Source: a bacterium (GTDB taxonomy: Bacteria > Patescibacteriota > Minisyncoccia > Phycocordibacterales > GWA1-40-21). From it: a stretch of DNA of 64,000 nt. Under the pieces are notes generated by a model. The model made no database searches. It was not told the DNA's origin and saw nothing but the letters and a program-made list of their open reading frames with translations. The DNA is taken from positions 1,094 to 65,093 of the forward strand of contig JBAXQJ010000004.1 in the NCBI GenBank assembly GCA_037131755.1, in the 5' to 3' direction. A program made the position numbers and the translations under genes. This document shows, piece after piece, positions 1 through 17,712 of this stretch; position 1 is the first letter of the stretch; every line of letters starts with the position of its first letter.

Positions 1-521
1 TATTCAAAAATAGTCTTAGAAACTAAATTCCAAAACTTTTGCGAATGATTAAATTCTTTCAGATGACAAAGCTCATGGACAATTATGTAATTAACTAGTT
101 TATCAGGCAACAGAACAATTTTATAATTAAAATTCAGGTTACCTTTTCTTGAACAGCTACCCCAGCGTGTTTTCTGATTCTTAATATTTATTTTGTTAAA
201 TCTAATCTTATAAATCTTATTGAACTTAGCCACTTTCTTCTCGGCTAACTCCTGAGCTTGCTGTTTATACTTTGTATAATCGGCATCAGAATTTTTAGTA
301 ATAAATGTTTTACTAAATGATCCAAAATAATCGAGCTTATCCAATATCCATTGAGATTTTTTTATTATAAACTGTTCAATTGTGTTCACGGCAATATTGG
401 TCGGAGCAGTAACTACAAAATTACCGTCACAATAAATTGCCAGTCTCATTCTTCGAGCTCGGTTGCTTACCTTTATAGTATATTCAACTTTTCTTTTATG
501 TAGCTCGATGTGTTTTTTCAT
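1..521 (-). CDS. DUF45/YgjP-like zinc metallohydrolase (partial; C-terminus runs off window start)
   Basis: Unlisted minus-strand ORF with ATG at 521-519, 3 nt after the hsdR stop. Own translation: MKKHIELHKRKVEYTIKVSNRARRMRLAIY...TRWGSCSRKGNLNFNYKIVLLPDKLVNYIIVHELCHLKEFNHSQKFW. The HELCH...H (HExxH) motif and TRWGSC segment are typical of DUF45 proteins that often sit beside Type I R-M loci. Confidence 0.6.
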   Translation of the reverse strand, partial: MKKHIELHKRKVEYTIKVSNRARRMRLAIYCDGNFVVTAPTNIAVNTIEQFIIKKSQWILDKLDYFGSFSKTFITKNSDADYTKYKQQAQELAEKKVAKFNKIYKIRFNKINIKNQKTRWGSCSRKGNLNFNYKIVLLPDKLVNYIIVHELCHLKEFNHSQKFWNLVSKTIFE

Positions 522-524
522 AAG

Positions 525-3440
525 CTAGAATTTCTTAATGACAATATCAATTAAACGATTAAGATACTTATTAAAATCTGAAACCTTTATTTGATCTTTA
601 TAATCCTTGAGAATTAGTTCTTGAAGTGTCCGCTTGGCTTCCTTTAAAAACTCTTCACGTTTCGATGAATCCTGCCAGCCGTCATCTAAGATGTCGGCTA
701 ATCGTGCCGCCATTTCTTTAATAAATTCTTTAACAATAGTTTCATCGGAGTCGCTAATAAATTCTTCGGACACGACAAATAACCCATACTCACCGAGCGA
801 ATAACCAAGTCCCTTGGCTTCTTCTGCCTTAGTCTTGATATCATTCATTAATTCATAGTAGCGCTTGATTCGTTCTGCTAAATCTATTTGATGTTTTTCA
901 AATTCTTGTCGAATGGCACTTAGTCTTTCACTGAACTTCTTAAAGGCTGGATGTGTATCGATATTAATCGATATCTCTCGCTTAAGCATCTTCTCAAGAT
1001 TAAGTGCCTTTTCGTCTTCGTTCATCTTGTCCAAGCGTTCAAGTGTATATAAATCATTAACCTTTAATTCTCTAAAATTTTTGGTTATGCCTTCATAGTC
1101 AATTTTTTCCTGAATAAGACTTTTAATTTTGCCGCCATATTCTGCCAAAGAAAAAGCATCGACACCGTCATCATCTTGGAACTCTTTTACAAAGGCTAAA
1201 TAAAAACTAGTAACCCACTCAAAAGTACGAATATACTCCATTAAGAATGGATCAGGCGATAGGATTTCGAATAGCATCTTAAGACGTGCGTATTTGTCCT
1301 TAAAAAATTGCTGCTTATTTTGATTATCAATAAAAATCTTGAGACAACGACGCAAATTATCAATTGATGGGTCTTCAATATTTACACCTGTAAATAATTC
1401 CATCACCTCTTCAATTACTTTAACAAATTCCTTTTTAAGACGTTCAATATCGATCATTGCGCTATCAACCACGCTCTCGTCAAAGTTGAGCGCATCATAA
1501 AGATTTTTGGTAACACCATAATAATCGATAATCTTGCCACACCCTTTATTTGGATAAACTCTATTTGTGCGAGCGATTGCCTGCAGTAGATTATGGTCTC
1601 TTAATGGTTTGTCCAAATACATAACCTGCTCAACTGGAGCATCAAATCCAGTCAATAGCATGTCACAAACTAATAAAAATTTAAGTGGGTGGCTTGCATC
1701 TTTAAACTGCTCTATAACCTTCTCTCGTTTTTGCTTATTAGTATTATATTTTTTTAGATCGTCGCTATCGCTATTAGGATCGCCGGGCGAGTAAACAACT
1801 TCTGACCATTCTGCTGGCACTAACTTATCAAGCATCTCCTTGTATTTTGCAGTTGCTTCACGATCGTAACATACAATCTGTGCTTTAAAACCATTCGGCA
1901 AAACATATAACTTGTAATGCTCAACGATATCCTGAATTACCGCTTCCATGCGTTTTTCAAGTTTAACTAAAGCTTCTTTTTTGCCATATTTTTTCATTAG
2001 CAACTCCCTCTGGCTATCATTGAGATCTGCGGTCATTTCCGCAAACTGCTTATCAAGCTTTTCTTCATCAACAAAAAACTTTGACAGCCTTGCTTCGTAG
2101 GTAACTGGTAATGTTGCGCCATCATCAATAGCTTGTTGAATTGAGTAGTAATCTAAATAACGCTCACCCTCTTCACCAAAGTTGCGGTGGGTATTTAATG
2201 TAAGTTTATCAATAGGGGTACCAGTAAAGCCAAAGAAAAAAGCGTTCTTAAACGCATTGCGCATCTTTATCGCAGAAATACCTTCATTATCACGATGAGC
2301 CTCGTCTGAAAGCACAATCACATTGCCTTCGATAGCTTCTACGTCCTGCAATTCATTAAACTTTTGAATAGTGGAAATAAATATACCCCTGTCAGCTCCC
2401 TTAATCTTTTTCTCTAAATCCTTTCGAGATTCAACTCGAATTAAGTTTTGTCCACCCCATGCTTCAAACTCATCAAAAACTTGTTGGTCTAGATCAATGC
2501 GATCAATTAATATAAATACCTTAGGATTTTTTAGCTGTTCATCAAATCGTAATTTCCAAGCAGCAAAAAACATAGTCAGGGTTTTTCCTGATCCTTGCGT
2601 ATGCCAAATTAAACCCTTCATTAATTCGCCATCCTTAACACGGCTAACAATCTTATTGGTAGCATAAAGTTGCTGATATCGAGCAATCTTCTTTGTATAA
2701 CTATCTTTCTTCTTCTCAAATACAATAAAGTTTTTAATAATATCTAAGACCTGAGTTTTGTCTAACAAATAATGTAGAGTTAAATCTAATTCTTCGTCAT
2801 ACTTCTTATTGCCACCGTGCAAATCTTCACGCCAAGTTAAAAAATATTGTTTTGGAGAATATGTTGCACCATAAACAGTTTTCAGTCCGTCCGTAGAGAT
2901 GTTAAAGCAATTAGGTAAAAATAATTTTGGCGCAACCTTTTCATACCGCTTAATCTGATCAATAGCATTTTCAAAATTAACGCTACTTGAGGCGGTGGGG
3001 CTTTTTGCTTCAATATCGCAAATCGGCAAACCATTGATAAAAATCATTACATCTGGTCGAATGTTTTCTGTCACACCCTCAAAGTAAAACTGATTGGTCA
3101 CAATAAATTGATTATTATCAATATTATCAAAATCAATAATCTTATAATCCTTAAACTGTCCAGAAGCAGGGTCTTTTATGTTTATGCCGTTTCTTAAGAC
3201 GAATAAAAATGACTCATTGGTGTCCAATTTCTTTACTTCACGAACTACGCTTTGAGCGATATCGTCGGTCGAATTATTAATTCTCTTAACTGCCTCTAAA
3301 AGATGTGGTGAAATAATATATTCATTTTCAAATATTCTCAGTTTAGAAAATTCATCAGCGCGAATATATTTATAACCGAGATTATCGGCAATAAATTTAA
3401 TTACATGGTTTTCGATCGTATGTTGTTCGTTAAATTTCAT
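525..3440 (-). CDS. hsdR: Type I restriction enzyme R subunit (HsdR)
   Basis: 971 aa; SF2 helicase motifs (HTQGSGKTLTMF Walker A, VLSDEAHRDNEG DEAH box); N-terminal nuclease-like region; adjacent to HsdM/S gene. Confidence 0.85.
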   Translation of the reverse strand: MKFNEQHTIENHVIKFIADNLGYKYIRADEFSKLRIFENEYIISPHLLEAVKRINNSTDDIAQSVVREVKKLDTNESFLFVLRNGINIKDPASGQFKDYKIIDFDNIDNNQFIVTNQFYFEGVTENIRPDVMIFINGLPICDIEAKSPTASSSVNFENAIDQIKRYEKVAPKLFLPNCFNISTDGLKTVYGATYSPKQYFLTWREDLHGGNKKYDEELDLTLHYLLDKTQVLDIIKNFIVFEKKKDSYTKKIARYQQLYATNKIVSRVKDGELMKGLIWHTQGSGKTLTMFFAAWKLRFDEQLKNPKVFILIDRIDLDQQVFDEFEAWGGQNLIRVESRKDLEKKIKGADRGIFISTIQKFNELQDVEAIEGNVIVLSDEAHRDNEGISAIKMRNAFKNAFFFGFTGTPIDKLTLNTHRNFGEEGERYLDYYSIQQAIDDGATLPVTYEARLSKFFVDEEKLDKQFAEMTADLNDSQRELLMKKYGKKEALVKLEKRMEAVIQDIVEHYKLYVLPNGFKAQIVCYDREATAKYKEMLDKLVPAEWSEVVYSPGDPNSDSDDLKKYNTNKQKREKVIEQFKDASHPLKFLLVCDMLLTGFDAPVEQVMYLDKPLRDHNLLQAIARTNRVYPNKGCGKIIDYYGVTKNLYDALNFDESVVDSAMIDIERLKKEFVKVIEEVMELFTGVNIEDPSIDNLRRCLKIFIDNQNKQQFFKDKYARLKMLFEILSPDPFLMEYIRTFEWVTSFYLAFVKEFQDDDGVDAFSLAEYGGKIKSLIQEKIDYEGITKNFRELKVNDLYTLERLDKMNEDEKALNLEKMLKREISINIDTHPAFKKFSERLSAIRQEFEKHQIDLAERIKRYYELMNDIKTKAEEAKGLGYSLGEYGLFVVSEEFISDSDETIVKEFIKEMAARLADILDDGWQDSSKREEFLKEAKRTLQELILKDYKDQIKVSDFNKYLNRLIDIVIKKF

Positions 3441-3460
3441 ATTTTTAGCAGCCTGAAAGA

Positions 3461-5725
3461 TTAGATCTTTTTGTTAAATAAACTATTTATCAATCCTCTT
3501 TTTCTCTGCATATACTTATCTAGCAATTGTTGTCTTAACTCCGCTTCACGCTTTACAGCTTCAAGTATGCTCGCTATTTCTTTTTGTTCATCTTCAGATG
3601 TGGGCAAATACAAGCTTTTTGACAAAAATTTTGTATTTGAAATATTGATAGTATTTTTTGCACCTTTTGATACTATGGTTTGTAGGTAATTATTTGTATT
3701 AATATTAGATTCAAAATACGCATCCAATATTACTCCTATAAAGTAATTTTTCGGCTCAAAAACTCCATACAAAGGAGAAACGATAGCATCCGTAGTAATT
3801 TTGCTTTGTTTAATTATACCGTAAGGGAAATCTCCTGTTGGACTCTTTGTATATATAATATCTCCAGGTCTAACAAGTTTATATTTTGAAGTGTCTTTTG
3901 CTGAATATGATCTGCCCAAATGCTCTATTTGGTTTACGACTCCCTTTTTTACAGATACAGAATGAACCTCTTCTTTTCCTGTGCTGAACAACTTATGTTC
4001 AGTTAAAACATCGCTAAGAAGAGTGTCCTTCCATTTATCCTTAGTAACTTGGCGCTTAGTTAAATCCAGGATACTAGCTTTGTATTTCTTTAGCTCCTCC
4101 TCAATAGAGTTTATTTCATTTTCTAAAGCTTCCAAGTCAACATCGATCTCTTTTTTAGAGGTGTCAACATAGCGCCTAATATCTAAATTAAAATCATTCT
4201 CAATAATTTTATTAAGAGATACTATTTCTGAATAATTTTTTATTGACTCAAATGACTCAAATGTATTAATAATTTTTTTTATATCTGATACACGCAATCT
4301 ATTTTGTTTTTTATCAATCTCAAAACCTTCCTCTGCACTTATTATCAAAATCTTATTCTTTTTTTCGGGAGATTTATTTTTGTTGAGAATAACAATTACA
4401 GCCGGAATTTTTGTTCCATAAAATAACTTTTGTGGCAATGATATAATTCCTTCTATGAGATCATTATTTAGAATAGCCTCCCTAATTTTTCCCTCAGAAC
4501 CGCCACGAAATAATACTCCATGTGGCAAAACAATTCCTGCACGACCATTTTCATTCATAGACTTAATTATATGCAAGATGAAAGCAAAGTCCGCATTTTT
4601 ATCTGGTGGCATTTCATATCCAGCTAGTCTGCCATATTTATTTGTTTTAAATACTTCCCACTCCCAATCTTTAATCGAATAGGGAGGATTTGCAACTACT
4701 ATATCAAAGCTCTGTAGCCCACCATGTTGGTTTAAAAATTGAGGATTAGCCAAGGTGTCGCCTCGACGAATATCAGCACTATCAAGACCATGAAGGAACA
4801 TATTTATACGAGCAATTGCAAAAGTACTTAAATTTACCTCCTGGCCATAGAGATATAAGGTTTTTGCTATTTTTTCACCAGATTTATTTTTTAGATAATC
4901 ATATGCCTCAAGCAAAAACCCACCCGAACCGACTGTTGGGTCGTATATGTGATCTTTCTGGTGTGGCTTTAATATGCCAATAATAACTTTTTCAACTTCT
5001 CTCGGAGTGTAAAATTCACCACCTTTTTTTCCTGCATCTGCTGCAAATTGTTTTATTAGGTATTCATAAGCATCACCAAGCAAATCTGAGCTGATATAGT
5101 TACTTCCAAAATTATATTGCGAAAAATGATTAATAAGTTTCTGCAGAGTTTCGTTTGGAAAGCGATCCTTGTTAGCAAAATCAAGATCGTCAAAAATTTT
5201 GTCGAGTTTAGGACTATTGGCATTGGTTAGCTTTTCAAAAATCTCATTTAGCTTTTGACCGATACCATCAGCTTGTTCTGTGATTACAGTCCAACGACAA
5301 TCTTTAGGAACTTGGAAACGATGATTGTAGTCAGCACGGGCTATATCTTCATTATTATATTCGTCCATTACTTTCTGATATTCTTCATCCCAAACATCGC
5401 TGATACGTTTATAAAACAACAATCCAAAGATATATTTTTTATAATCCGAGCTGTCAATTTTGCCACGCAAGATGTCAGCACTTTTCCAAAGCATTGCCTC
5501 GAGTTGGGGTAGTGTAAGTTGACTACCCATTTTATCAACGATGGCTTCAATGTCTTGTGGGCGATATTTGCGATCACCACGTTTTCCAGCTCTAAGTGGA
5601 ACCAAAATTCCATCCTTTTCCCAATTACGAAGAGTGTCTTGATGAATTGAGAAAATTTCAGCTACCTGACTAATAGAAAGAAGCTCTGGCATGCCTTTTA
5701 ATTTTTCTTGTATGTCTTTGCGCAT
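3461..5725 (-). CDS. hsdM: Type I R-M methyltransferase fused to a single HsdS target-recognition domain, with N-terminal MerR/Xis-like HTH
   Basis: 754 aa. N-terminal LSISQVAEIFSIHQDTLRNWEKDGILVPLR helix-turn-helix; HsdM N-domain (LWKSADILRG...LLFYKRISD); N6-adenine MTase motif VVANPPYS; C-terminal about 230 aa resemble an HsdS TRD plus conserved helix (LVRPGDIIYT...ISNTKFLSKSLYLPTSEDEQKEIASILEAV). Confidence 0.75.
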   Translation of the reverse strand: MRKDIQEKLKGMPELLSISQVAEIFSIHQDTLRNWEKDGILVPLRAGKRGDRKYRPQDIEAIVDKMGSQLTLPQLEAMLWKSADILRGKIDSSDYKKYIFGLLFYKRISDVWDEEYQKVMDEYNNEDIARADYNHRFQVPKDCRWTVITEQADGIGQKLNEIFEKLTNANSPKLDKIFDDLDFANKDRFPNETLQKLINHFSQYNFGSNYISSDLLGDAYEYLIKQFAADAGKKGGEFYTPREVEKVIIGILKPHQKDHIYDPTVGSGGFLLEAYDYLKNKSGEKIAKTLYLYGQEVNLSTFAIARINMFLHGLDSADIRRGDTLANPQFLNQHGGLQSFDIVVANPPYSIKDWEWEVFKTNKYGRLAGYEMPPDKNADFAFILHIIKSMNENGRAGIVLPHGVLFRGGSEGKIREAILNNDLIEGIISLPQKLFYGTKIPAVIVILNKNKSPEKKNKILIISAEEGFEIDKKQNRLRVSDIKKIINTFESFESIKNYSEIVSLNKIIENDFNLDIRRYVDTSKKEIDVDLEALENEINSIEEELKKYKASILDLTKRQVTKDKWKDTLLSDVLTEHKLFSTGKEEVHSVSVKKGVVNQIEHLGRSYSAKDTSKYKLVRPGDIIYTKSPTGDFPYGIIKQSKITTDAIVSPLYGVFEPKNYFIGVILDAYFESNINTNNYLQTIVSKGAKNTINISNTKFLSKSLYLPTSEDEQKEIASILEAVKREAELRQQLLDKYMQRKRGLINSLFNKKI

Positions 5726-5785
5726 ATTTTATGGATTAATAATCTTAATCCTAGTATACATCAAATATTTTGTAAAGTCAATCGT

Positions 5786-5805
5786 TCATAGGTTATCATA
5801 GGTTA
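5786..5805. promoter_or_regulatory. tandem direct repeat tcataggtta x2 in divergent hsdM / recombinase promoter region
   Basis: Perfect 10-bp tandem duplication in the 181-bp intergenic region between divergent genes. Confidence 0.3.
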
Positions 5806-5906
5806 AGATAATTTATCACTATATTTATTATAGTAATATTAGGCATTTTTAAGGGACTTGGGACGCTCTGGACTCTTCTGTAGATATGCGTCATCAATGT
5901 TAGTAT

Positions 5907-7226
5907 ATGAATACAATACAAATGCCCGTAGGGGTGACGAGCAAAATAATCACCCCAGTTAAGGCAAAATACTGCCTTTATGCCCGAAAATCGACCGAAA
6001 GCGAGGAAAGGCAGGTCTTATCAATAGATAGCCAAATTAAGGAGATGCTTGAGCTGGCTGAACGAGAGCAACTGGACATCGTAGAACTCAAAAGAGAGTC
6101 TCACAGCGCTAAAGAGGCTGGACAGCGACCAGTTTTTAATGAAATTATAGCCGAGATAAAGGAGGGTAAATTTAATGCCATTTTGACATGGGCTCCTGAC
6201 CGTATATCAAGAAATGCAGGCGACCTAGGCAAAATTGTGGATTTAATGGATTCTGGTGCCCTGCTTGAGATAAGGACATATGGTCAGAAATTTAGCAATA
6301 ACCCGAACGAGAAGTTTCTGCTCATGATTCTCGGATCACAAGCCAAACTTGAAAACGACAACAGAGGCATTAATGTCAGACGAGGACTAAGGACTAGGGC
6401 TGAGATGGGTTTGTGGGTAGGTCTAGCACCGCTAGGCTATCTGAACCAAAGACGGATGGACAAGAAGTGCCAAGTGGTAGTTGATCCGCTACGTGCGCCA
6501 GCCATCAAGCAGATGTTTGAGAAAATGGCTTACGAAAAGTTTAGTGGGCGAAAATTATTCAACTGGCTCAAACATGATCTAAACTTTTACACCCGAGGCA
6601 ACAAGCCGCTAACGTTGGCTGGTGTTTATAGAATAATAAATAATCCATTCTACTACGGCGTATTTGAGCGACCAGTCGGTAGTGGCAACTGGTATCAAGG
6701 AAAACATAAGCCTCTAATTAGTAAGGACTTATACGACAAAGCACAAGCTCAATTAAAACGAGATCAAATTGTTAGAGAAAATAAAGAGTTTGCATTCACT
6801 AAACTATTCACTTGCGGTTATTGTGGCTCGGGCATATCGGCAGAGGAAAAATACAAACCGCTCAAGGACGGAACACATGCAAGATACATCTACTACTCCT
6901 GTTCGAGGGCACGAGATCGCAATTGCAAGAATAAATACATAAGAGAAGAAGAATTGATTACTGAACTGCTAAAAATATTAGACAAGGTAAATATTAACGA
7001 GCTAGGAATGCGGCAAAAACTGGAAGATGAAATTGCCAGATTCAATATCTTCCAACGATCAGTGCTTGGCGCAACTGATAAAATCAAAACCAACAAAGAA
7101 ATGGATATTAGAAACTATGCTAAATATCTACTCAAAGAGGGAGCGACATCGGATAAGCGAGAGTTGCTCGGAAATTTAAGGTCGAAGATAATGTACAAGG
7201 ATAAAGTATTAACTTTGATTGAATAG
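5907..7226 (+). CDS. large serine recombinase (resolvase/integrase family)
   Basis: 439 aa; N-terminal resolvase catalytic domain (CLYARKSTESEERQVLSIDSQ, catalytic Ser); recombinase domain; Cys-rich zinc ribbon (CGYCGSG...YYSCSRARDRNC). Confidence 0.8.
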   Translation: MNTIQMPVGVTSKIITPVKAKYCLYARKSTESEERQVLSIDSQIKEMLELAEREQLDIVELKRESHSAKEAGQRPVFNEIIAEIKEGKFNAILTWAPDRISRNAGDLGKIVDLMDSGALLEIRTYGQKFSNNPNEKFLLMILGSQAKLENDNRGINVRRGLRTRAEMGLWVGLAPLGYLNQRRMDKKCQVVVDPLRAPAIKQMFEKMAYEKFSGRKLFNWLKHDLNFYTRGNKPLTLAGVYRIINNPFYYGVFERPVGSGNWYQGKHKPLISKDLYDKAQAQLKRDQIVRENKEFAFTKLFTCGYCGSGISAEEKYKPLKDGTHARYIYYSCSRARDRNCKNKYIREEELITELLKILDKVNINELGMRQKLEDEIARFNIFQRSVLGATDKIKTNKEMDIRNYAKYLLKEGATSDKRELLGNLRSKIMYKDKVLTLIE

Positions 7227-7238
7227 CATTTAGCACCA

Positions 7239-8591
7239 TCAATAAGCTTTGAATAGACGGCGAATTAATTTTTTAAAATACCGTTTTAAAGAATTATCTC
7301 TATTTAGATATTTTGAAATAAAATCATTGGCGCTTTTTATTTCCACGCTTTTTAGCCAACTAATTATTTCTTTATTAATTTTGAGTGTTTCTATAGCGTC
7401 TTGATTATTCAACTCCTTGCCTCTATGTATTACTTCATTTCGTATTTTATCGTAATTTGTGCACCATCCATTCCATAGAATCGCACTTTCTTTTGATAAT
7501 TTTTTTTCAGATACTTCGAATACAAGATCTTTTATTCTGTCTTTTGTATTCCATTTTCTATTCAATATTGCTTGAACATCTTCGGGGCTCAACCCCTTTT
7601 TTATATAGGCAGAAAAAAGAAAATTTTCTAAAAATATTTCGAATGCTTGAAAAATTTTAACGACTGCTAAAGTATACGCCTTTTTACTAATAGACGACGC
7701 CCCGTCTAGCAATAATAACTCATACAACAATGGCATCTCGTCATTTTTTAGCATCAACTCAATCGTCTTGAGCATGTTTAACGGTCTATTCATTATCGCA
7801 TCACCTATGCCATACCCCAATGAACTTATATATAGATGATTGTTGTGATCAACAAAATATACGTTATTTATGTTCAAAGAACCTAATCTCTCAACATAAT
7901 CTTCTTGCGTAACATATCTATACACATCCAAAAGCTTATTAATAACCTCGAGTGAAATTTCTGAGATTGTATTAATCACAGAACTAATATTCTTATTTAT
8001 TTCTTCAATCTTAAAGTCAGTATCTATTTGAATAATGACTTTTGTGTATCTGAACGTCCCATTAGCATCTCTTTCTTTTTCAATGTTTTTACCAGTCCAA
8101 TGTTGTTGCCAACCAAGACTTTCATTTATGGGAAATTGGGGACCAGTCAATACCGTATCTTTGAAATAAGTAGTTTTATTTTCAGCTAAATAATCAGCAT
8201 AATCTGAGTCAACTGTTGAAGTAGTCCAGATTTTTTGAAGTCGGACGTTAGCGACATGTTCTTTCCCCTTGTAGTTAATATCAAAATCGTAGTTATTTGG
8301 CACATGTAGACAATATGGCAGAGTCGCTTCAATAATGGTATTACAATCAAATTCTTCTTTCAAAAATGATGGATCAGTCAATTGATAAACTGGCGATGTA
8401 GTTGTGATTATAAACGCCTTTTCTAGGTTTACTTTATTTAAATCATTAGTTAGCAATTGTTTCTGCTGATCTGACGATAATTTTTCAAATTCTTTTTTGT
8501 TAACCAAAACATAAAAATTAACCACCTCCTGTTTATTTTTAAGGTGGGACTTGGCTTGTATTTCTAATAATTGCCAATCTTTTTCAGTCAT
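7239..8591 (-). CDS. hypothetical protein with C-terminal HEPN-like motif (candidate Abi/defence effector)
   Basis: 450-aa ORF with no recognisable enzymatic domain apart from RNEVIHRG (Rx4H) near the C-terminus in a helical region. Sits in the island between the recombinase and tRNA-Ser. Confidence 0.5.
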   Translation of the reverse strand: MTEKDWQLLEIQAKSHLKNKQEVVNFYVLVNKKEFEKLSSDQQKQLLTNDLNKVNLEKAFIITTTSPVYQLTDPSFLKEEFDCNTIIEATLPYCLHVPNNYDFDINYKGKEHVANVRLQKIWTTSTVDSDYADYLAENKTTYFKDTVLTGPQFPINESLGWQQHWTGKNIEKERDANGTFRYTKVIIQIDTDFKIEEINKNISSVINTISEISLEVINKLLDVYRYVTQEDYVERLGSLNINNVYFVDHNNHLYISSLGYGIGDAIMNRPLNMLKTIELMLKNDEMPLLYELLLLDGASSISKKAYTLAVVKIFQAFEIFLENFLFSAYIKKGLSPEDVQAILNRKWNTKDRIKDLVFEVSEKKLSKESAILWNGWCTNYDKIRNEVIHRGKELNNQDAIETLKINKEIISWLKSVEIKSANDFISKYLNRDNSLKRYFKKLIRRLFKAY

Positions 8592-8655
8592 ATGTATATT
8601 ATACCAAAAATGCCCCTAATAGGGGCATTCGGGTCTATCCGATACTAAATTGTAT

Positions 8656-8747
8656 TGGCGGAGACGGCGAGATTCGAACTCGCGGAGCCCTATAAGAGGC
8701 TCACCTCTTTAGCAAAGAGGCACATTAGACCACTCTGACACGTCTCC
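8656..8747 (-). tRNA. tRNA-Ser (anticodon GCU), CCA encoded
   Basis: Manual fold of GGAGACGTGTCAGAGTGGTCTAATGTGCCTCTTTGCTAAAGAGGTGAGCCTCTTATAGGGCTCCGCGAGTTCGAATCTCGCCGTCTCCGCCA: 7-bp acceptor, anticodon loop TTGCTAA, long variable arm, TTCGAAT T-loop. Confidence 0.8.
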
Positions 8748-8932: not shown

Positions 8933-9098
8933 AAATCATAACAAAATAAGACTATCATATTAAATCCGTTTTTTCTAGTCACGCTCTTAAACAAAGATCT
9001 GACTGATCTCAAGCTGATCTTCTCGGTCCGTCTCTCGCCTATCAGGAAAAACTTAACAAGAAAAACACCCGGTCAAAACCAGGTGCGAAAGCCATTAT

Positions 9099-9485
9099 TT
9101 AATTCTGTTGATTTCTCCGACGAAAGATCTCCTGGCGGACTTCGAGCAATTTAGGCAGAACTTTCTTCCAAACAACCTCTTCATACTCGTAAAAATGGAT
9201 AACCAGCACCGCGACGACCATTCTCGGATGATGATTCTTAAACCTGGTCGCGGCCACCCAACTTGATTTTACCTGCACGTACAGAGAACCGATGTCTCGC
9301 GTTTCCACCACGAGATCAATCCCGCGGGTATCCTCTTCCTTCGTGGCAAATCGCACAGTCTTGAACCAGTCAAGACCATAGGCAAATTTTAATATGGCTT
9401 CAAATGTCCGTTCTTCCGCCTTCTTACCCTTGGCCAATTCGACATGGCCGAGCCGGCGATCGGCAAAAACAGCTTGATTGTTCAT
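9099..9485 (-). CDS. hypothetical protein
   Basis: 128-aa ORF; no confident domain assignment. Confidence 0.45.
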   Translation of the reverse strand: MNNQAVFADRRLGHVELAKGKKAEERTFEAILKFAYGLDWFKTVRFATKEEDTRGIDLVVETRDIGSLYVQVKSSWVAATRFKNHHPRMVVAVLVIHFYEYEEVVWKKVLPKLLEVRQEIFRRRNQQN

Positions 9486-9567: not shown

Positions 9568-10023
9568 TTACTTCAAATCACCGACATAGTACTGGTCCAA
9601 CAGACTGTTCGCATATGAGGAATGCGGTCGGCCGCCGGGACGGCCTTTGGTGTCAAACGCCACGGTGGCATCCTTTCCGCAATACGAGTCGATGGTGTAA
9701 GTTCCTCCGGGATGATTGATGTCGTAATTGCTCAAATCATAGACTTTGGCGTTTATGATCATCCAGCAATCTGAAGCCGTACTGTGCTTTGCCACTTCAG
9801 CCGCATTCAGGACGACTGTCTTGCCGGAAGTCGGTTTAATTGAAGTTGCAGTTGAGGCACTTCTGGTATTACCGCCGGCTTTCAAATTATTATTTTGATA
9901 AAAAACCAAGCCCGCCGTCAGAATAGCGGTGACAACGCAGAAAAATATGAACAATGATACGCCAGTTAATTTCTTCATTTGATTACAACATGCTAAATTC
10001 TTCAGCGTGAATATTTTTATCAT
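9568..10023 (-). CDS. membrane-anchored cytochrome b5-like heme-binding domain protein
   Basis: N-terminal TM helix; C-terminal DCWMIINAKVYDLSNYDINHPGG...GKDATVAFD matches the cytochrome b5 HPGG heme-binding signature. Overlaps the downstream reductase gene by 41 nt. Confidence 0.6.
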   Translation of the reverse strand: MIKIFTLKNLACCNQMKKLTGVSLFIFFCVVTAILTAGLVFYQNNNLKAGGNTRSASTATSIKPTSGKTVVLNAAEVAKHSTASDCWMIINAKVYDLSNYDINHPGGTYTIDSYCGKDATVAFDTKGRPGGRPHSSYANSLLDQYYVGDLK

Positions 10024-11287
10024 TTACGCCTAGGCTGATAAACTGCTCGGTCAATGATTTCATAAAAGCCGACGGACCGCAAATATAGATTTCTTCCCTG
10101 ATCAGATTACCGCTTTGGGTGGCAATCTCTTTGGCACTTATCCTTCCCTGCTCCTTGGAAATCCACGGCAAAACCCGAAACTTCTTGTTGGCCGACATGA
10201 CCGTCTGAAGCTCCGCCAGCAATACCAACTCTTTCTTTTCCGCCACGCAATAATACAAATCGATATTATGATTTCCCTCTTTCAGACTTCGCGCCATGCT
10301 CAGAAACGGCGTGATGCCGACCCCGCCAGCAATCCAGATTTCTTTTTTATCGCTTTGGCTATCTTCAAAAAAACTGCCGAAAGGTCCCTCGATCATCACC
10401 TTCATGCCGGTACGCATTTTGTCAAAATCGCTGGTAAAATCGCCGAGAGACTTGATCACGAGCTTGATTTTTTCCTCACTGACCGATGAAGAAATGGAAA
10501 AAGGATGCGGTTCGGAACTGATACCGGTGGCGACAAATCGGATATAGATAAACTGGCCGGGACGGAAATCCATCGCTCGTTCATTTGGTTTCAATTCAAG
10601 TTCGACGATTTTGTCGTGCAAAACCCTGACGGCTTTTATCTCATACTCGTAGTCATTATTGAAAAACTTTCGGAAAAAAGAGCGATACGCTCCAGCAAGT
10701 AAGCCCCAGACTGAAAAGAACAAAATATAGTAACGGATAAACAAGTCGCGCGAGATATCGCTAGTGATAAGGAAGGTGTGGACTAGGGCAAAAACAAAAA
10801 CGACGACCATCACCTTGTGCGATATTCGCCAAACATGATACTTAATTTTTACGAAGATGGTCAGGATCAGGAGAATAATCATGAGAGTCAACGCCCAAAT
10901 GCCGGCGTCCATCGCCAAACCATTTCCCGGCAGCAAGAACAGGGCCGCGCTTCTCACCGAAACAGAAACATATTTCACCACCAGAAACAGAGGGTGGAAT
11001 AAGAGCAGAGAAAAAGACAAAGACCCGAGGAATCGATGGGCGCCATAAAAGCGATGCAGACCGCCGAAAATCCGATCAAAGAAAGTTGAACGACTGCTTA
11101 AAATAAGATTGATGGCAAAAATAGTCATACCCAAAAGACCGGCTATTTGCCCAAGACTGGTCATCGTCGTGTTCAGATTCAGAAATCTCAGAGACAACGG
11201 TTCAAGGAAAAACCAACGGGCAATCGGGACCAGACATAGGACTGCCAAGACGGCAGTCGGAAGACTTTTTGATTTAATCAATTTCAT
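9983..11287 (-). CDS. ferric reductase / NOX-like transmembrane flavocytochrome (FRD TM domain + FAD + NAD(P) binding)
   Basis: 434 aa; about 6 TM helices with paired His (GLHRFYGAHRF; YHVWRISHKV...LVHTF); FAD-binding HPFSISSS motif; NAD-binding GGVGITPF motif. Confidence 0.7.
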   Translation of the reverse strand: MKLIKSKSLPTAVLAVLCLVPIARWFFLEPLSLRFLNLNTTMTSLGQIAGLLGMTIFAINLILSSRSTFFDRIFGGLHRFYGAHRFLGSLSFSLLLFHPLFLVVKYVSVSVRSAALFLLPGNGLAMDAGIWALTLMIILLILTIFVKIKYHVWRISHKVMVVVFVFALVHTFLITSDISRDLFIRYYILFFSVWGLLAGAYRSFFRKFFNNDYEYEIKAVRVLHDKIVELELKPNERAMDFRPGQFIYIRFVATGISSEPHPFSISSSVSEEKIKLVIKSLGDFTSDFDKMRTGMKVMIEGPFGSFFEDSQSDKKEIWIAGGVGITPFLSMARSLKEGNHNIDLYYCVAEKKELVLLAELQTVMSANKKFRVLPWISKEQGRISAKEIATQSGNLIREEIYICGPSAFMKSLTEQFISLGVNDKNIHAEEFSML

Positions 11288-11311: not shown

Positions 11312-11773
11312 TTAATCCCTTTCCTCGTTGTTGTAAGATAGCTTCTTTAGTCCTTTTTCAAGGAACCAAAAAATCGTAAAGATAATCAAGGTAAGGCCAG
11401 TGGCGATTGCCGCTGGAACATAATAGCCGAATCCGCACGCCATACCGACTCCAGCCGAAACCCACAGGCCGGCGGCGCTGGTCAGACCGGAAACTTTTGA
11501 CTCCTTATGAAAAACCAAGCCGGCACCGATAAAGCCGATACCGGAGATGATGGCTGGTCCGAGGAAAATCGGGTTGAAGGCAACCGTTCCGGTCAATTTT
11601 TCACCCATAAGAAGCGAAATGAGAGCAAACAAAGCTGAGCCCATACCCGCCAAAGCGTACGTGCGCATTCCGGCGCTTTTGCCAGCCAGCGTCCTTTCTA
11701 TTCCAACCAGACCGCCAAGGGCGACCGCAATACTGAGACGAATCAAGATATCAATAGTCGTTAGTTCTAACAT
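11312..11773 (-). CDS. mgtC: MgtC/SapB family membrane protein
   Basis: 153 aa; N-terminal LIRLSIAVALGGLVGIERTLAGKSAGMRTYALAG is characteristic of the MgtC family. Confidence 0.7.
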   Translation of the reverse strand: MLELTTIDILIRLSIAVALGGLVGIERTLAGKSAGMRTYALAGMGSALFALISLLMGEKLTGTVAFNPIFLGPAIISGIGFIGAGLVFHKESKVSGLTSAAGLWVSAGVGMACGFGYYVPAAIATGLTLIIFTIFWFLEKGLKKLSYNNEERD

Positions 11774-14288: not shown

Positions 14289-14361
14289 GCGCGTGTAGCT
14301 CAGTTGGTAGAGCGGTCGTCTTATACACGACTGGTCCCAGGTTCGAATCCTGGCACGCGCA
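14289..14361 (+). tRNA. tRNA-Ile (anticodon UAU)
   Basis: Manual cloverleaf of GCGCGTGTAGCTCAGTTGGTAGAGCGGTCGTCTTATACACGACTGGTCCCAGGTTCGAATCCTGGCACGCGCA: perfect 7-bp acceptor, 5-bp anticodon stem GTCGT/ACGAC, loop CTTATAC (U33, anticodon TAT, A37), discriminator A, no encoded CCA. Confidence 0.75.
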
Positions 14362-14476
14362 CAAACTAAAGCCGGGTTTTCATCAGATGAAAACCCGGCT
14401 GAGTATTTTATATGATTGGTCGCCAAGGTCTCACCTTTCCCGTCGCCGACTCCTCCCCAAGGAGAGACCTTGTCGC

Positions 14477-16525: not shown

Positions 16526-16972
16526 ATGAGTGCGACACTTATCCAAAACAAAAAAGCTTTCTTCAACTACGAAATCACGGAAAAATTTACCGCCGGCGTG
16601 GAGCTTTTTGGTTATGAAGTAAAGACCTTGCGTTCCAAGCAAGGCTCGCTTGATGGCGCTTATATTATCGTCCGGGGTGGCGAAGCGTATCTCGTCGGTT
16701 CAAACATACCCGCCTACCAACCCAAAAACGCGCCCAAAGAATACGACTCCAAGAGAAACCGCCGACTCCTTTTGTCCAAGAAAGAGATTTCTTACCTCTC
16801 AAACGCCGGCGACGCCCAGGGATTGACAATAGTGCCTATAGAGTTATATAATAGTGGGAAGTTTATCAAGCTGTCTTTCGGCATCGGCAAAGGAAAAAAG
16901 AAGTTTGATAAGCGCGAAGATATCAAAAAGCGCGAATCAAATCGCGACATTGAAAGAACTTTGAAATATTAG
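16526..16972 (+). CDS. smpB: SsrA-binding protein SmpB
   Basis: 148 aa; KKAFFNYEITEKFTAGVELFGYEVKTLRSKQGSLDGAYI matches SmpB. Confidence 0.9.
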   Translation: MSATLIQNKKAFFNYEITEKFTAGVELFGYEVKTLRSKQGSLDGAYIIVRGGEAYLVGSNIPAYQPKNAPKEYDSKRNRRLLLSKKEISYLSNAGDAQGLTIVPIELYNSGKFIKLSFGIGKGKKKFDKREDIKKRESNRDIERTLKY

Positions 16973-17055: not shown

Positions 17056-17473
17056 GGGGATGCATGTTTTGACAAAAAACCAAACCCTTTCGTGCAAAGC
17101 AGAGCTCCAACAACTCTTTAAAAGGTTGGAAATTGTAATTGCAAACACATTAGTTGCAAAGGCAAAGTCTCTTGTTTCTCCATATTTTGGAGTACAGGAT
17201 CTTGCTTTCGCCTACGTTGCTTAATCTTTTTAGATTAGCCTAGGCGGCGTCTCTCTCGCCTATTTCGCGGAGACGGGACGAGGCGTAATATACGCGAATA
17301 TATTTTGCAGTAGTCTCGACTGCAAACCGAGAACAAGAGAATCGGCTTATGATCATTTTTCTGATTTTGAAATCATAAGCTAAAATCCGTCACAAGACGG
17401 GACTAAATCAGATACGCTTTGTAGACTCGTCTGTGTTAATTTTTTGGACGCGGTTTCAATACCGCCATCTCCA
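17056..17473 (+). ncRNA. ssrA: putative tmRNA (SsrA)
   Basis: Begins GGGGATGCATGTTTTGAC (tmRNA-like 5' end) downstream of smpB. The 3' end CATCTCC-A can pair with 5' GGGGATG (one G-U) to form a tRNA-like acceptor, preceded by a T-arm-like GCGGTTTCAATACCGC. An internal ORF ends ...DLAFAYVA-TAA at 17222-17224. Not covariance-model verified. Confidence 0.5.
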
Positions 17474-17712
17474 CACTTTCAAAAATCCGCTCATTCTGAT
17501 GGGCGATTTTTGTTGTGTGGATATGAGCAAGCAAACTGCTTTGCTTGCGGGCGGTATTGAAAAGATTGGCGCTGTTTTGTCGGCAAAACCGCCAATCACG
17601 CGCCGTGGGCGGCAATTACCGCCATGTTTCTCAAACCCATTGACGAAACAACTGGAATGTGATAATTTTTTGACTGGAGTTTAAACCAAAAAAGTTAGAG
17701 AGGAATTGATAA

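What the first reader, a model, noticed from the sequence alone, without database searches (positions are those of the whole stretch)
9568..11287. NOX/ferric-reductase-like flavocytochrome translationally coupled to a cytochrome b5 domain protein
A 6-TM bis-heme FRD domain with FAD (HPFS) and NAD(P)H (GGVGITP) modules is followed, with a 41-nt overlap, by a membrane-anchored cytochrome b5 (HPGG). Bacterial cytochrome b5 is uncommon, and such a pair in a fermentative minimal genome suggests an electron-export, ROS-generating or metal-reduction system directed at a host or the environment.
Basis: partly seen in the sequence, partly recalled or inferred. Interest (0 to 1): 0.5.

Follow-up and report, generated by a model that had tools for sequence, protein, structure and literature searches.

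The report
NOX-like electron exporter with outward-facing cytochrome b5
A membrane enzyme resembling a bacterial NADPH oxidase sits next to a small haem protein predicted to be tethered on the outside of the cell; the two probably carry electrons out of this tiny respiration-less bacterium, and the gene pairing has already been noted in these bacteria without a known function.

Summary
Both genes are real, on the minus strand. The first (9983..11287, 434 aa) is a six-helix, two-haem ferric-reductase-domain protein with FAD and NAD(P)H domains. Its closest solved relative is Streptococcus pneumoniae NOX (SpNOX). The second is a cytochrome b5 with an N-terminal membrane anchor. Its true start is most likely ATG 9978 (136 aa), 4 nt after the first gene's stop, so the 41-nt overlap is a longest-ORF artefact.

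Positive-inside counts, the flexible linker and an invariant cysteine pair (the disulfide of periplasmic Ectothiorhodospira b558) place the b5 domain outside the cell, facing the outer haem.

The pair is a conserved two-gene unit:
- 16 of the 17 closest FRD loci carry the b5 gene directly downstream.
- 50 of 56 b5 loci have the FRD gene adjacent.
- No third gene is conserved.
- It also occurs in DPANN archaea and in Cellvibrionales gammaproteobacteria, including a named Haliea strain.

Most likely mechanism: NAD(P)H → FAD → two membrane haems → external b5 → unknown acceptor.

A 2021 preprint already reported ferric-reductase/cytochrome-b5 co-localisation in CPR genomes, with function unknown, so this is a new member of a known but uncharacterised kind. 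It offers a testable candidate for the missing protein acceptor of bacterial NOX homologues.

The parts
9983..11287 (-). Gene for the 434-aa NOX-like flavocytochrome (ferric-reductase transmembrane domain + FAD domain + NAD(P)H domain); the stop codon is 9983-9985
   Evidence: ORF; Pfam; SpNOX is the best PDB match by sequence (E 1e-34) and by fold (TM 0.79-0.88); identical protein P0001 in public data
10673..11287 (-). Transmembrane ferric-reductase domain, residues 1-205, six helices. Codons of the haem ligands: H84 11036-11038 and H157 10817-10819 (inner haem); H98 10994-10996 and H170 10778-10780 (outer haem)
   Evidence: Helices in the AF2 model; the four His are invariant in 34/34 homologues and are the only conserved His of the domain; they align with SpNOX H69/H129 and H83/H142 (PMC11564096); K+R count is 9 inside versus 3 outside
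10376..10651 (-). FAD-binding beta-barrel, residues 213-304, with HPFS at 261-264
   Evidence: Pfam FAD_binding_8; H261, P262 and F263 are invariant
9986..10342 (-). NAD(P)H-binding domain, residues 316-434, with GGVGITP at 321-327, CGP at 403-405 and invariant F431 near the C-terminus
   Evidence: Pfam NAD_binding_1; invariant columns; matches the SpNOX dehydrogenase domain at rmsd 2.0-2.5 A
9568..9978 (-). Gene for the 136-aa membrane-anchored cytochrome b5. The preferred start is ATG 9978, 4 nt after the FRD stop; the longest ORF would start at 10023
   Evidence: Pfam Cyt-b5 E 2.5e-20; homologues and public gene calls start at MKK
9904..9960 (-). N-terminal signal-anchor helix of the b5 protein, residues 7-25, preceded by MKK
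   Evidence: Hydropathy; AF2 helix 2-32; N-flank net charge +2.9 versus +0.9 after the helix, higher in 117 of 119 homologues
9814..9903 (-). Low-complexity flexible linker, residues 26-55 (N/S/T/G/K-rich)
   Evidence: pLDDT below 50 for residues 35-46; variable length and S/T/N/P-rich composition in homologues
9571..9813 (-). Cytochrome b5 haem domain, residues 56-136. Haem-ligand codons: H89 9712-9714 and H119 9622-9624. Cysteine-pair codons: C71 9766-9768 and C100 9679-9681
   Evidence: H89, H119, C71 and C100 are invariant in 38 sequences, including the Ectothiorhodospira type; best PDB match 1cxy by sequence (E 3e-17) and by fold (TMt 0.96, rmsd 1.0 A)
11312..11773 (-). MgtC-family gene 24 nt upstream on the same strand. 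It is possibly co-transcribed in this genome but is not part of the conserved module
   Evidence: Pfam MgtC; not recovered among the neighbour families shared by 5 or more of the 100 related loci compared
9065..9086 (-). Terminator-like hairpin after the 128-aa ORF (9099..9485) that follows b5; a possible end of the transcription unit
   Evidence: Consensus scan, 9-bp stem plus T run; the scan as a whole is only weakly above shuffles

Best explanation
The two genes encode a two-component system that moves electrons out across the membrane.

Proposed path:
1. The 434-aa protein oxidises cytoplasmic NAD(P)H on its C-terminal dehydrogenase domain.
2. Electrons pass through FAD to the inner haem (H84/H157), then to the outer haem (H98/H170) near the external face of the membrane.
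3. The 136-aa protein is anchored by one N-terminal helix, with its disulfide-stabilised His/His haem domain held outside the cell on a linker of about 30 residues.
4. This b5 domain docks on the exposed outer haem, takes one electron, and delivers it to an acceptor that is not encoded in the module.

Candidate acceptors are O2, Fe(III) or other soluble oxidants, or a redox partner on a neighbouring (host) cell. In an organism without a respiratory chain, the net effect would be to regenerate NAD(P)+ by disposing of electrons outside.

Shown here: domain content, ligands, folds, predicted topology of both proteins, and conserved adjacency in both directions and across phyla.

Inferred: haem and FAD loading, direct electron transfer from FRD to b5, the direction of flow (NAD(P)H near -320 mV to a b5-type haem near 0 mV, from general knowledge), and the terminal acceptor.
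For: 1. The enzyme has the SpNOX architecture: Pfam domains, full-length match to SpNOX at E 1e-34, and an AF2 model (pLDDT 84.6) that superposes on 8qt6/8qta at TM 0.79-0.88.
2. All four haem ligands and the FAD and NAD motifs are invariant.
3. The FRD topology is N-in with the dehydrogenase domain inside: K+R 9 versus 3, holding in 34/34 homologues.
4. The b5 protein is a canonical His/His b5.
5. The b5 domain is predicted to lie outside. The positive-inside rule holds in 117/119 homologues. The helix is long and uncleaved, followed by a disordered linker. C71/C100 are invariant and align with the disulfide cysteines of periplasmic b558 (PMC8877833). The gammaproteobacterial orthologues look, by eye only, as if they carry cleavable signal peptides.
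6. Linkage is strong. The b5 gene lies directly downstream on the same strand in 16 of the 17 closest FRD loci. The FRD gene lies directly upstream in 47, and adjacent in 50, of 56 b5 loci with enough flank. Stop-to-start distance is -4 to +15 nt. FRD and b5 distances co-vary (Mantel r 0.75, 0 of 5000 permutations).
7. The pair recurs in DPANN archaea. L009 carries aIF-2 and ribosomal protein S6e within 5 kb. It also recurs in Cellvibrionales, including Haliea sp. E1-2-M8.
8. No third gene is conserved.
9. Sister clades of the same enzyme carry other exported redox partners downstream: a multi-domain cytochrome c, PepSY_2, DUF2271 and cytochrome b561.
10. SpNOX has a solvent-exposed outer haem and reduces cytochrome c directly without O2. 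Its authors proposed that a protein acceptor may exist (PMC11564096).
Against: - No experiment exists on any member of the pair.
- The topology is predicted, not measured.
- Adjacency and co-divergence fit functional coupling but do not prove direct electron transfer. Co-divergence is partly expected from shared ancestry.
- The closest characterised b5, the Ectothiorhodospira b558 type, is not encoded next to an FRD gene, so this kind of b5 can work with other partners.
- Six of 56 b5 loci have no FRD gene within 3.5 kb.
- One close FRD locus (L005) has an unrelated anchored protein downstream instead.
- SpNOX itself reduces O2 in vitro (PMC11564096, PMC5676040), so the enzyme might not need b5 to turn over.
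- CPR bacteria are generally thought to lack haem synthesis (my own knowledge, not checked for this genome), so loading three haems would need an outside supply.
Confidence: 0.65

Rival explanations
1. Stand-alone oxidase. The FRD protein alone reduces O2 at its outer haem to superoxide or peroxide, for O2 scavenging or as a weapon. The b5 protein is an accessory, for example re-capturing superoxide electrons or modulating activity, rather than the obligate acceptor.
For: SpNOX, the closest solved relative, oxidises NADPH with O2 as acceptor in vitro (PMC5676040, PMC11564096). In one archaeal locus a rubrerythrin gene follows the pair, hinting at an oxygen-stress context.
Against: The transmembrane domain conserves only the four ligand histidines and has invariant P99 and L102 after the outer ligand. 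So the two-His plus Arg oxygen site of eukaryotic NOX is missing, as are N84 and S86 proposed for SpNOX (PMC11564096). The SpNOX authors themselves doubt that O2 is the physiological acceptor. A mere accessory would not be expected to stay adjacent in about 90% of loci across two domains of life. The rubrerythrin link is a single case.
Confidence: 0.15
2. Assimilatory ferric (or cupric) reductase. The pair reduces extracellular Fe(III) or Fe(III) chelates to Fe(II) for uptake, with b5 as the outward-reaching reductase head. This is a special case of the best explanation with iron as the terminal acceptor.
For: The family name and the eukaryotic FRE precedent (PMC3591440). MsrQ-like/NAD-binding proteins cluster with VIT1 iron transporters or PepSY proteins in other bacteria (PMC8238504). 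PepSY_2 and DUF2271 partners occur in sister clades.
Against: No iron transporter, Fur-type regulator or siderophore gene is conserved near the pair in 100 loci, and none lies within 10 kb here. SpNOX reduces iron directly only very slowly (0.05 per second; PMC11564096).
Confidence: 0.15
3. Cytoplasm-facing b5 system. The b5 domain faces the cytoplasm and is reduced by the dehydrogenase domain, like eukaryotic cytochrome b5 reductase and b5, to feed a membrane desaturase, hydroxylase or P450.
For: The best-known job of b5 is donating electrons to such enzymes. JGI names these proteins 'cytochrome b involved in lipid metabolism'. FNR-type domains do reduce b5 in eukaryotes (Cyb5R hits).
Against: The N-terminal anchor has the positive charge in front of it in 117/119 homologues. 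The cysteine pair shared with a periplasmic, disulfide-bonded b5 is invariant (PMC8877833). Linkers are S/T/P/N-rich, and some homologues have tandem domains and acidic tails typical of surface proteins. The gammaproteobacterial orthologues look, by eye, as if they have cleavable signal peptides. No desaturase or P450 is conserved nearby. A two-haem membrane domain would be pointless for same-side transfer.
Confidence: 0.05
4. Haem acquisition. The surface b5-like domain captures external haem for a haem-auxotrophic cell, and the FRD protein supplies electrons to release or reduce it.
For: CPR bacteria are thought to lack haem synthesis (my own knowledge). Tandem haem-binding domains on long stalks recall Gram-positive NEAT-domain haem receptors.
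Against: Strict His/His hexacoordination and the HPGG core are hallmarks of electron carriers, not haem-transfer proteins. No haem transporter is conserved nearby. The pair also occurs in Cellvibrionales, which I would expect (my own knowledge) to make their own haem.
Confidence: 0.04

Closest known systems
Streptococcus pneumoniae NOX (SpNOX; PDB 8qt6, 8qq7)
   Same: Same three-domain architecture and size class, the same four haem ligands and FAD/NAD motifs, and a full-length fold match. External loops are short, and the eukaryotic O2-binding site is absent (PMC11564096).
   Different: Only 23% identical. SpNOX has no reported partner gene, whereas here a b5 gene is fixed downstream. SpNOX residues N84 and S86, proposed to bind O2, are P and F here.
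CPR 'pFre / cytochrome b5' gene clusters described in bioRxiv 10.1101/2021.11.17.468889
   Same: A PF01794 gene next to a PF00173 gene in a CPR genome. The preprint counts 185 such genomes among 1427 with pFre and proposes a membrane complex of unknown function.
   Different: This locus is the minimal two-gene form with a classical His/His b5. It lacks the tyrosine-ligating cytb5MY, the CBLA/CBLB proteins and the two-component regulator that the preprint treats as ancestral. The preprint does not discuss which side b5 faces. It states that the pairing was not seen outside CPR, whereas it is found here in DPANN archaea and Cellvibrionales.
Ectothiorhodospira vacuolata cytochrome b558 (PDB 1cxy), the characterised bacterial b5
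   Same: Best sequence and fold match of the b5 domain (43% identity, rmsd 1.0 A). It shares the cysteine pair and is exported (PMC8877833).
   Different: b558 is soluble with a cleaved signal peptide and has HPGP rather than HPGG. Its gene is not next to an FRD gene. Its function is also unknown.
MsrQ-MsrP, and the 'MsrQ-like' flavinylation-associated systems (PMC8238504)
   Same: A two-haem FRD membrane protein hands electrons to a dedicated exported redox protein. Many MsrQ-like proteins also carry the NAD-binding domain.
   Different: The partner here is a haem b5 domain, not a molybdoenzyme or an ApbE-flavinylated FMN-binding protein. No MsrP, ApbE or FMN_bind gene lies within 10 kb. MsrQ itself lacks the dehydrogenase domain.
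Eukaryotic NADH-cytochrome b5 reductase / cytochrome b5
   Same: An FNR-type flavoprotein plus a His/His b5 haem carrier.
   Different: In eukaryotes both sit on the same, cytosolic face and b5 has a C-terminal tail anchor. Here a two-haem membrane domain lies between them, the anchor is N-terminal, and the b5 domain is predicted to be outside.

Membership tests
NOX/FRE long-form ferric-reductase-domain superfamily (SpNOX-like bacterial NOX) | Six transmembrane helices with bis-histidine motifs on helices 3 and 5 (13 and 12 residues between the His) | tested here: met
   H84/H98 and H157/H170 invariant in 34/34; six helices
NOX/FRE long-form ferric-reductase-domain superfamily (SpNOX-like bacterial NOX) | C-terminal FNR-type dehydrogenase domain with the FAD motif HPF[ST] and the NAD(P)H motifs GxGxxP and CGP | tested here: met
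   Pfam FAD_binding_8 and NAD_binding_1 above cut-off; motifs invariant
NOX/FRE long-form ferric-reductase-domain superfamily (SpNOX-like bacterial NOX) | Overall fold superposable on a solved NOX | tested here: met
   Foldseek against 8qt6/8qta: TM 0.79-0.88, rmsd 3.2-3.6 A over about 435 columns
NADPH oxidase in the functional sense (O2 to superoxide) | Oxygen-reducing centre at the outer haem (two His, one Arg, haem propionate, as summarised in PMC11564096) | tested here: not met
   Only the four ligand His are conserved in the membrane domain; the positions after the outer ligand are P99, L, F, L102. No residue-level alignment to a eukaryotic NOX membrane domain could be obtained, so this rests on the absence of any spare conserved His
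NADPH oxidase in the functional sense (O2 to superoxide) | Measured NAD(P)H-dependent superoxide or peroxide production | not testable with these tools
   Needs purified protein
Cytochrome b5 (Pfam PF00173, classical His/His type) | Profile match above the curated threshold and a b5 fold | tested here: met
   72.7 bits against a cut-off of 23.7; AF2 domain pLDDT about 90 or higher, TMt 0.96 to 1cxy and 0.85-0.9 to rat and bovine b5
Cytochrome b5 (Pfam PF00173, classical His/His type) | Two axial histidines, the first in HPGG | tested here: met
   H89 (HPGG) and H119 invariant in 38 sequences and aligned to the ligands of 1cxy and rat b5
Cytochrome b5 (Pfam PF00173, classical His/His type) | Haem actually bound and redox-active | not testable with these tools
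   Needs spectroscopy
Exported bacterial b5 (Ectothiorhodospira b558 type) | Export signal and an intradomain disulfide (PMC8877833) | tested here: met
   N-terminal hydrophobic segment with a positive N-flank; C71 and C100 invariant and aligned with the b558 cysteines. Disulfide formation itself is not testable here
Exported bacterial b5 (Ectothiorhodospira b558 type) | Soluble periplasmic protein after signal cleavage | tested here: inconclusive
   The 19-residue hydrophobic core sits in a 31-residue predicted helix and I saw no Ala-x-Ala site, which suggests an uncleaved anchor; no signal-peptide predictor was available
CPR pFre / cytochrome-b5 cluster (bioRxiv 10.1101/2021.11.17.468889) | PF01794 gene within 10 kb of a PF00173 gene in a CPR genome | tested here: met
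   The genes are adjacent; the closest named relatives are Minisyncoccia, Falkowbacteria and Parcubacteria
CPR pFre / cytochrome-b5 cluster (bioRxiv 10.1101/2021.11.17.468889) | Full 'ancestral' set: cytb5MY, CBLA, CBLB and a two-component regulator | tested here: not met
   None among the called genes within 10 kb either side
MsrPQ | FRD-only MsrQ plus the periplasmic molybdoenzyme MsrP | tested here: not met
   A dehydrogenase domain is present; no MsrP-like gene nearby
MsrQ-like flavinylation-associated system (PMC8238504) | [quoted passage not shown] | tested here: not met
   Absent within 10 kb and not among conserved neighbours

The most novel reading that the evidence does not exclude
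The pair is an electron outlet that lets respiration-less episymbionts (CPR bacteria and DPANN archaea, which appear to have exchanged it) unload NAD(P)H electrons through a surface-tethered b5 'arm'. In some lineages the arm is lengthened by tandem b5 domains. The electrons would go onto the host cell surface or into the host's respiratory chain, or onto external oxidants, so the symbiont's fermentative redox balance would depend on its partner. This would also identify the long-sought physiological protein acceptor of prokaryotic NOX homologues.
Probability: 0.15. Interest if true: 0.8.

Novelty: new member of a known kind. Interest (0 to 1): 0.45.

Why it matters
Patescibacteria and DPANN archaea almost entirely lack electron-transport chains and oxygen reductases (PMC7507113). 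A conserved system that moves NAD(P)H electrons across the membrane is therefore one of the few membrane redox devices they have, and how they balance redox is unresolved.

What bacterial NOX homologues do is also open. The SpNOX structure paper concluded that O2 may not be the real acceptor and that a protein acceptor might exist (PMC11564096). A b5 gene fixed directly downstream of one large clade of these enzymes, predicted to face the outer haem, is a concrete candidate for that acceptor.

The same pair occurs in a named Haliea strain, so the idea may be testable in a culturable organism rather than only in uncultured CPR. Its presence in both bacteria and archaea with similar lifestyles points to exchange of the module as a unit.

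Tried and rejected
1. The 41-nt overlap and the 151-aa b5 ORF were rejected in favour of ATG 9978.

2. I asked whether the only characterised bacterial b5, Ectothiorhodospira b558, is an FRD partner. I searched with the 1cxy sequence and looked at the genomic context of a 97%-identical protein and of the E. variabilis orthologue. Neither is near an FRD gene; the neighbours are PNPase and a glutathione peroxidase. The link was dropped. The more distant Haliea hit of the same search is paired.

3. I looked for a conserved third component (terminal reductase, transporter or regulator) by clustering all ORFs from 100 loci. Nothing beyond the pair occurs in more than 11 loci.

4. MgtC upstream was considered as part of the system. 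It is not conserved elsewhere, so it is treated as a local neighbour.

5. The metagenome scan with the broad b5 alignment A2 failed because no stretch was conserved enough. It was repeated with the closer set A3.

6. A PDB search with the membrane domain alone returned only SpNOX. Residue-by-residue comparison with eukaryotic NOX oxygen sites was therefore not possible, and the argument rests on which histidines are conserved.

7. I checked whether the pair belongs to the adjacent low-GC island. It does not: its GC of 0.43-0.47 equals the core genome.

8. Promoter and terminator scans were barely above shuffles. Only the hairpin at 9086-9065 is positioned sensibly.

9. The NJ tree is crude and is used only for grouping.

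10. A model of the complex was not attempted.
Full report
**What is in the sequence**

On the minus strand, ORF 9983..11287 encodes a 434-aa protein. The next ORF downstream encodes a cytochrome b5 domain protein.

Pfam places three domains on the first protein, all above their curated cut-offs:
- Ferric_reduct at residues 49-167;
- FAD_binding_8 at residues 216-304;
- NAD_binding_1 at residues 319-411.

The second protein matches Cyt-b5 at E 2.5e-20.

The reported 41-nt overlap comes from taking the longest ORF (ATG 10023). Three things point to ATG 9978 instead:
- All aligned homologues begin at the equivalent of 9978 with MKK followed by the hydrophobic helix.
- Public gene calls for the identical protein give 136 aa.
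- The 15 extra residues have no counterpart elsewhere.

With that start, the b5 gene begins 4 nt after the TAA of the first gene. In related loci the junction is an ATGA overlap in 10 cases and a 1-15 nt spacer in most others. Tight coupling is therefore a family property even though the stated overlap is not real.

**The flavocytochrome**

Among solved structures, the best match by sequence is Streptococcus pneumoniae NOX. It aligns over residues 38-416 at E 1e-34, far ahead of eukaryotic NOX2, NOX5 and DUOX.

An AlphaFold model built on 34 homologues (pLDDT 84.6, pTM 0.80) has six long membrane helices followed by a beta-barrel and a Rossmann-type domain. It superposes on SpNOX at TM 0.79-0.88.

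Conserved residues in the 34-sequence alignment:
- H84 and H98 are invariant, 14 apart, on helix 3.
- H157 and H170 are invariant, 13 apart, on helix 5.
- The FAD and NAD motifs and a near-C-terminal phenylalanine (F431) are also invariant.

In the SpNOX alignment these histidines correspond to H69/H129 (inner haem) and H83/H142 (outer haem) (residue roles from PMC11564096).

Lysine plus arginine counts are 9 in the predicted cytoplasmic segments against 3 in the outer loops. The inside count exceeds the outside count in all 34 homologues. This fits the NOX topology, with the dehydrogenase domain in the cytoplasm.

The four ligands are the only histidines conserved in the membrane domain. The residues after the outer ligand are invariant P99, then L, F, and invariant L102. 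The protein therefore lacks a spare histidine for the two-His plus Arg oxygen site described for eukaryotic NOX. It also lacks N84 and S86, which were proposed, and not confirmed by mutation, for SpNOX (PMC11564096). I could not align the membrane domain to a eukaryotic NOX residue by residue, so this point rests on conservation alone.

**The cytochrome b5**

The closest solved relative is cytochrome b558 of Ectothiorhodospira vacuolata, PDB 1cxy (E 3e-17). The AlphaFold model of the domain (pLDDT about 90 or higher for residues 56-136) matches it at rmsd 1.0 A, TM 0.96 and 43% identity, slightly better than mammalian b5.

H89 (in HPGG) and H119 are invariant in 38 sequences that include the Ectothiorhodospira type. 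So are C71 and C100. [quoted passage not shown] The two invariant cysteines align with the only cysteines in the aligned part of b558.

The N-terminus is MKK followed by a 19-residue hydrophobic core (residues 7-25), modelled as one long helix (residues 2-32). A linker of about 25-30 residues with very low confidence follows.

Across 119 homologues with such a segment, the net charge before the helix averages +2.9, against +0.9 after it. The N-flank is the more positive in 117. In relatives the linker is S/T/N/P-rich and variable in length. Some proteins carry two b5 domains in tandem or acidic tails.

Taken together, the b5 domain is predicted to lie outside the cytoplasmic membrane, on the same side as the outer haem of the flavocytochrome. 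This is a prediction and has not been measured.

**Is the pairing meaningful?**

Starting from the flavocytochrome, a scan of one genome per species returned 80 loci. Searching their ORFs with a profile built from 120 b5 homologues gave these results:
- The b5 gene lies directly downstream on the same strand in 16 of the 17 closest loci.
- Twenty-seven of the 80 loci had a b5-profile hit somewhere in the locus, in most cases directly downstream of the FRD gene.

Starting from b5 instead, a metagenome scan returned 80 loci. Of the 56 with at least 1.4 kb upstream:
- 47 have the flavocytochrome gene ending within -60 to +120 nt of the b5 start;
- 3 more have it adjacent in another arrangement;
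- 6 have none within 3.5 kb. Two of these sit beside what looks, by eye, like a transposase gene, and four come from loci whose inferred proteins look high-GC.

Pairwise distances of the two proteins across 20 loci correlate (Mantel r 0.75, none of 5000 permutations as high). They have evidently travelled together, though shared ancestry contributes to this.

Clustering all flanking ORFs from 100 loci finds no third conserved gene. The next most frequent family occurs in 11 loci and is a housekeeping GTPase. In the window the neighbours are MgtC, RecG, FtsH and SmpB on one side, and an unrelated 128-aa ORF and a tRNA-Ser on the other. The unit is just the two genes.

**Distribution**

The closest relatives carry CPR/Patescibacteria names: Minisyncoccia, Falkowbacteria, Parcubacteria, Staskawiczbacteria, Buchananbacteria, Saccharibacteria.

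The same pair also occurs in DPANN archaeal genomes. The Pacearchaeota locus L009, on a 486-kb contig, carries archaeal initiation factor aIF-2 and ribosomal protein S6e within 5 kb of the pair.

It further occurs in Cellvibrionales gammaproteobacteria: Porticoccaceae, Cellvibrionaceae, Marinimicrobium, and Haliea sp. E1-2-M8.

In a rough neighbour-joining tree:
- The archaeal enzymes nest among CPR ones.
- The Cellvibrionales enzymes form a separate clade.
- The Cellvibrionales b5 has HPTP in place of HPGG and what looks, by eye, like a cleavable signal peptide.

Other clades of the same enzyme family have other exported partners directly downstream:
- a 1163-aa multi-domain cytochrome c;
- a PepSY_2 protein;
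- a DUF2271 protein;
- a cytochrome b561.

This pattern suggests a general design: an NAD(P)H-driven electron conduit across the membrane, with exchangeable external partners.

**Mechanism proposed**

1. NAD(P)H is oxidised in the cytoplasm.
2. Electrons pass through FAD to the inner haem and then the outer haem.
3. The tethered external b5 domain picks up one electron at the exposed outer haem.
4. It delivers the electron to an acceptor that the module does not encode.

The direction follows from general redox potentials, with NAD(P)H far more reducing than b5-type haems. That is my own knowledge and was not computed here.

SpNOX supports this mode of action. Its outer haem is unusually exposed and it reduces cytochrome c directly under anoxic conditions. 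Its authors suggested that O2 may not be the physiological acceptor and that a protein acceptor might exist, by analogy with MsrQ and MsrP (PMC11564096).

The 'MsrQ-like' systems of PMC8238504 are a close functional parallel. There a PF01794 protein, often with the same NAD-binding domain, is clustered with an exported flavinylated protein. In those systems the external carrier is a flavin rather than a haem.

The terminal acceptor is unknown. O2, Fe(III) or other oxidants, or a partner cell surface are all open. I put 0.65 on the two-component electron-export reading as a whole.

**Rivals**

- A stand-alone oxidase with b5 as an accessory (0.15) is weakened by the missing oxygen site and by how strictly the pair stays adjacent.
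- Iron assimilation (0.15) is really a choice of terminal acceptor. No conserved iron genes lie nearby, and SpNOX reduces iron directly only slowly.
- A cytoplasm-facing reductase/b5 system (0.05) conflicts with every topological indicator.
- A haem-capture role (0.04) conflicts with the strict His/His electron-carrier signature.

**What is known already**

A 2021 preprint (bioRxiv 10.1101/2021.11.17.468889) reports several things:
- Putative ferric reductase genes co-localise with cytochrome b5 domain genes in CPR genomes: 185 of the 1427 genomes that have PF01794.
- Together they may form a membrane complex of unknown, CPR-specific function.
- The co-localisation was not seen outside CPR.

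The window's locus is the minimal form of that cluster. It has a classical His/His b5, and it lacks the tyrosine-ligating b5 variant, the two atypical b5-like proteins and the two-component regulator on which the preprint focuses.

Three things here go beyond that preprint:
- a prediction of which side b5 faces, which the preprint does not discuss;
- the link to SpNOX and its missing acceptor;
- the occurrence of the pair in DPANN archaea and Cellvibrionales.

None of this is experimental. I therefore class the finding as a new member of a known but uncharacterised kind, of moderate interest.

**Limits**

- No experiment exists for any member of the pair.
- Topology, cofactor loading and electron transfer between the two proteins are all inferred.
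- The complex was not modelled.
- MAG taxonomy is taken from record titles, except for L009.
- The tree is crude.
- 'Fermentative minimal genome' could not be verified from 64 kb. The general absence of electron-transport chains in Patescibacteria and DPANN is taken from PMC7507113.

Noticed in passing
window 1-8600 (boundary at tRNA-Ser 8656-8747): A low-GC block (0.31-0.36, against 0.43-0.50 in the rest of the window). It carries type I restriction-modification genes (525..3440, 3461..5725), a serine recombinase (5907..7226) and an unknown 450-aa ORF (7239..8591), and it ends at a tRNA-Ser(GCU) gene. It is probably an integrated island. The FRD and b5 genes lie just outside it and have core-genome GC.
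   Followed up: partly
window 14289-14362 (+): A tRNA-Ile with anticodon UAU (ARAGORN; Rfam tRNA, 75 bits). To my knowledge most bacteria read AUA with a lysidine-modified CAU tRNA, so a UAU isoleucine tRNA is unusual and may say something about how this lineage decodes.
   Followed up: no
window 17056-17474 (+): A tmRNA gene with a 22-residue tag peptide, AKAKSLVSPYFGVQDLAFAYVA, about 80 nt downstream of the ORF at 16526..16972, whose size and position match the SmpB gene called on L081.
   Followed up: no
window 9099-9485 (-): A 128-aa ORF 82 nt downstream of b5 on the same strand, with only a weak sub-threshold DUF4365 match, followed by the best terminator-like hairpin of the region at 9086-9065. 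It may be co-transcribed with the pair, and it is not conserved in related loci.
   Followed up: partly
L052 7088-10576; L045 7295-7687; L080 6674-7168; L030 7113-7670: Other clades of the same FRD-FAD-NAD enzyme have different exported or membrane redox partners directly downstream: a 1163-aa multi-domain cytochrome c (Rhizobium and related), PepSY_2 (Rhodobacterales), DUF2271 (Vulcaniibacterium) and cytochrome b561 (Saprospiraceae).
   Followed up: partly
L022 1616-2191: In a Woesearchaeota genome a rubrerythrin gene follows the FRD-b5 pair on the same strand. This is a single hint of a link to oxygen or peroxide stress.
   Followed up: no
L001 4943-5800; L004 7275-8321; L017 7263-8345: Some partners carry two b5 domains in tandem on one membrane anchor, separated by long S/T/P-rich linkers. 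L004 and L017 have a further C-terminal region of unknown nature.
   Followed up: no
L006 6682-7431; L011 1750-2517; L012 about 7520-8291: Saccharibacteria loci have, in the b5 position, an anchored protein with a divergent b5-like C-terminal domain (no HPGG; Cys-rich). Pfam does not recognise it. It may be one of the atypical 'CBL' proteins of the 2021 preprint.
   Followed up: no
L085 1126-1485; L086 5001-5399: The Ectothiorhodospira b558-type genes sit next to the PNPase gene, and on L085 next to a glutathione peroxidase gene, rather than an FRD gene. The partner of the only characterised bacterial b5 therefore remains unknown.
   Followed up: yes
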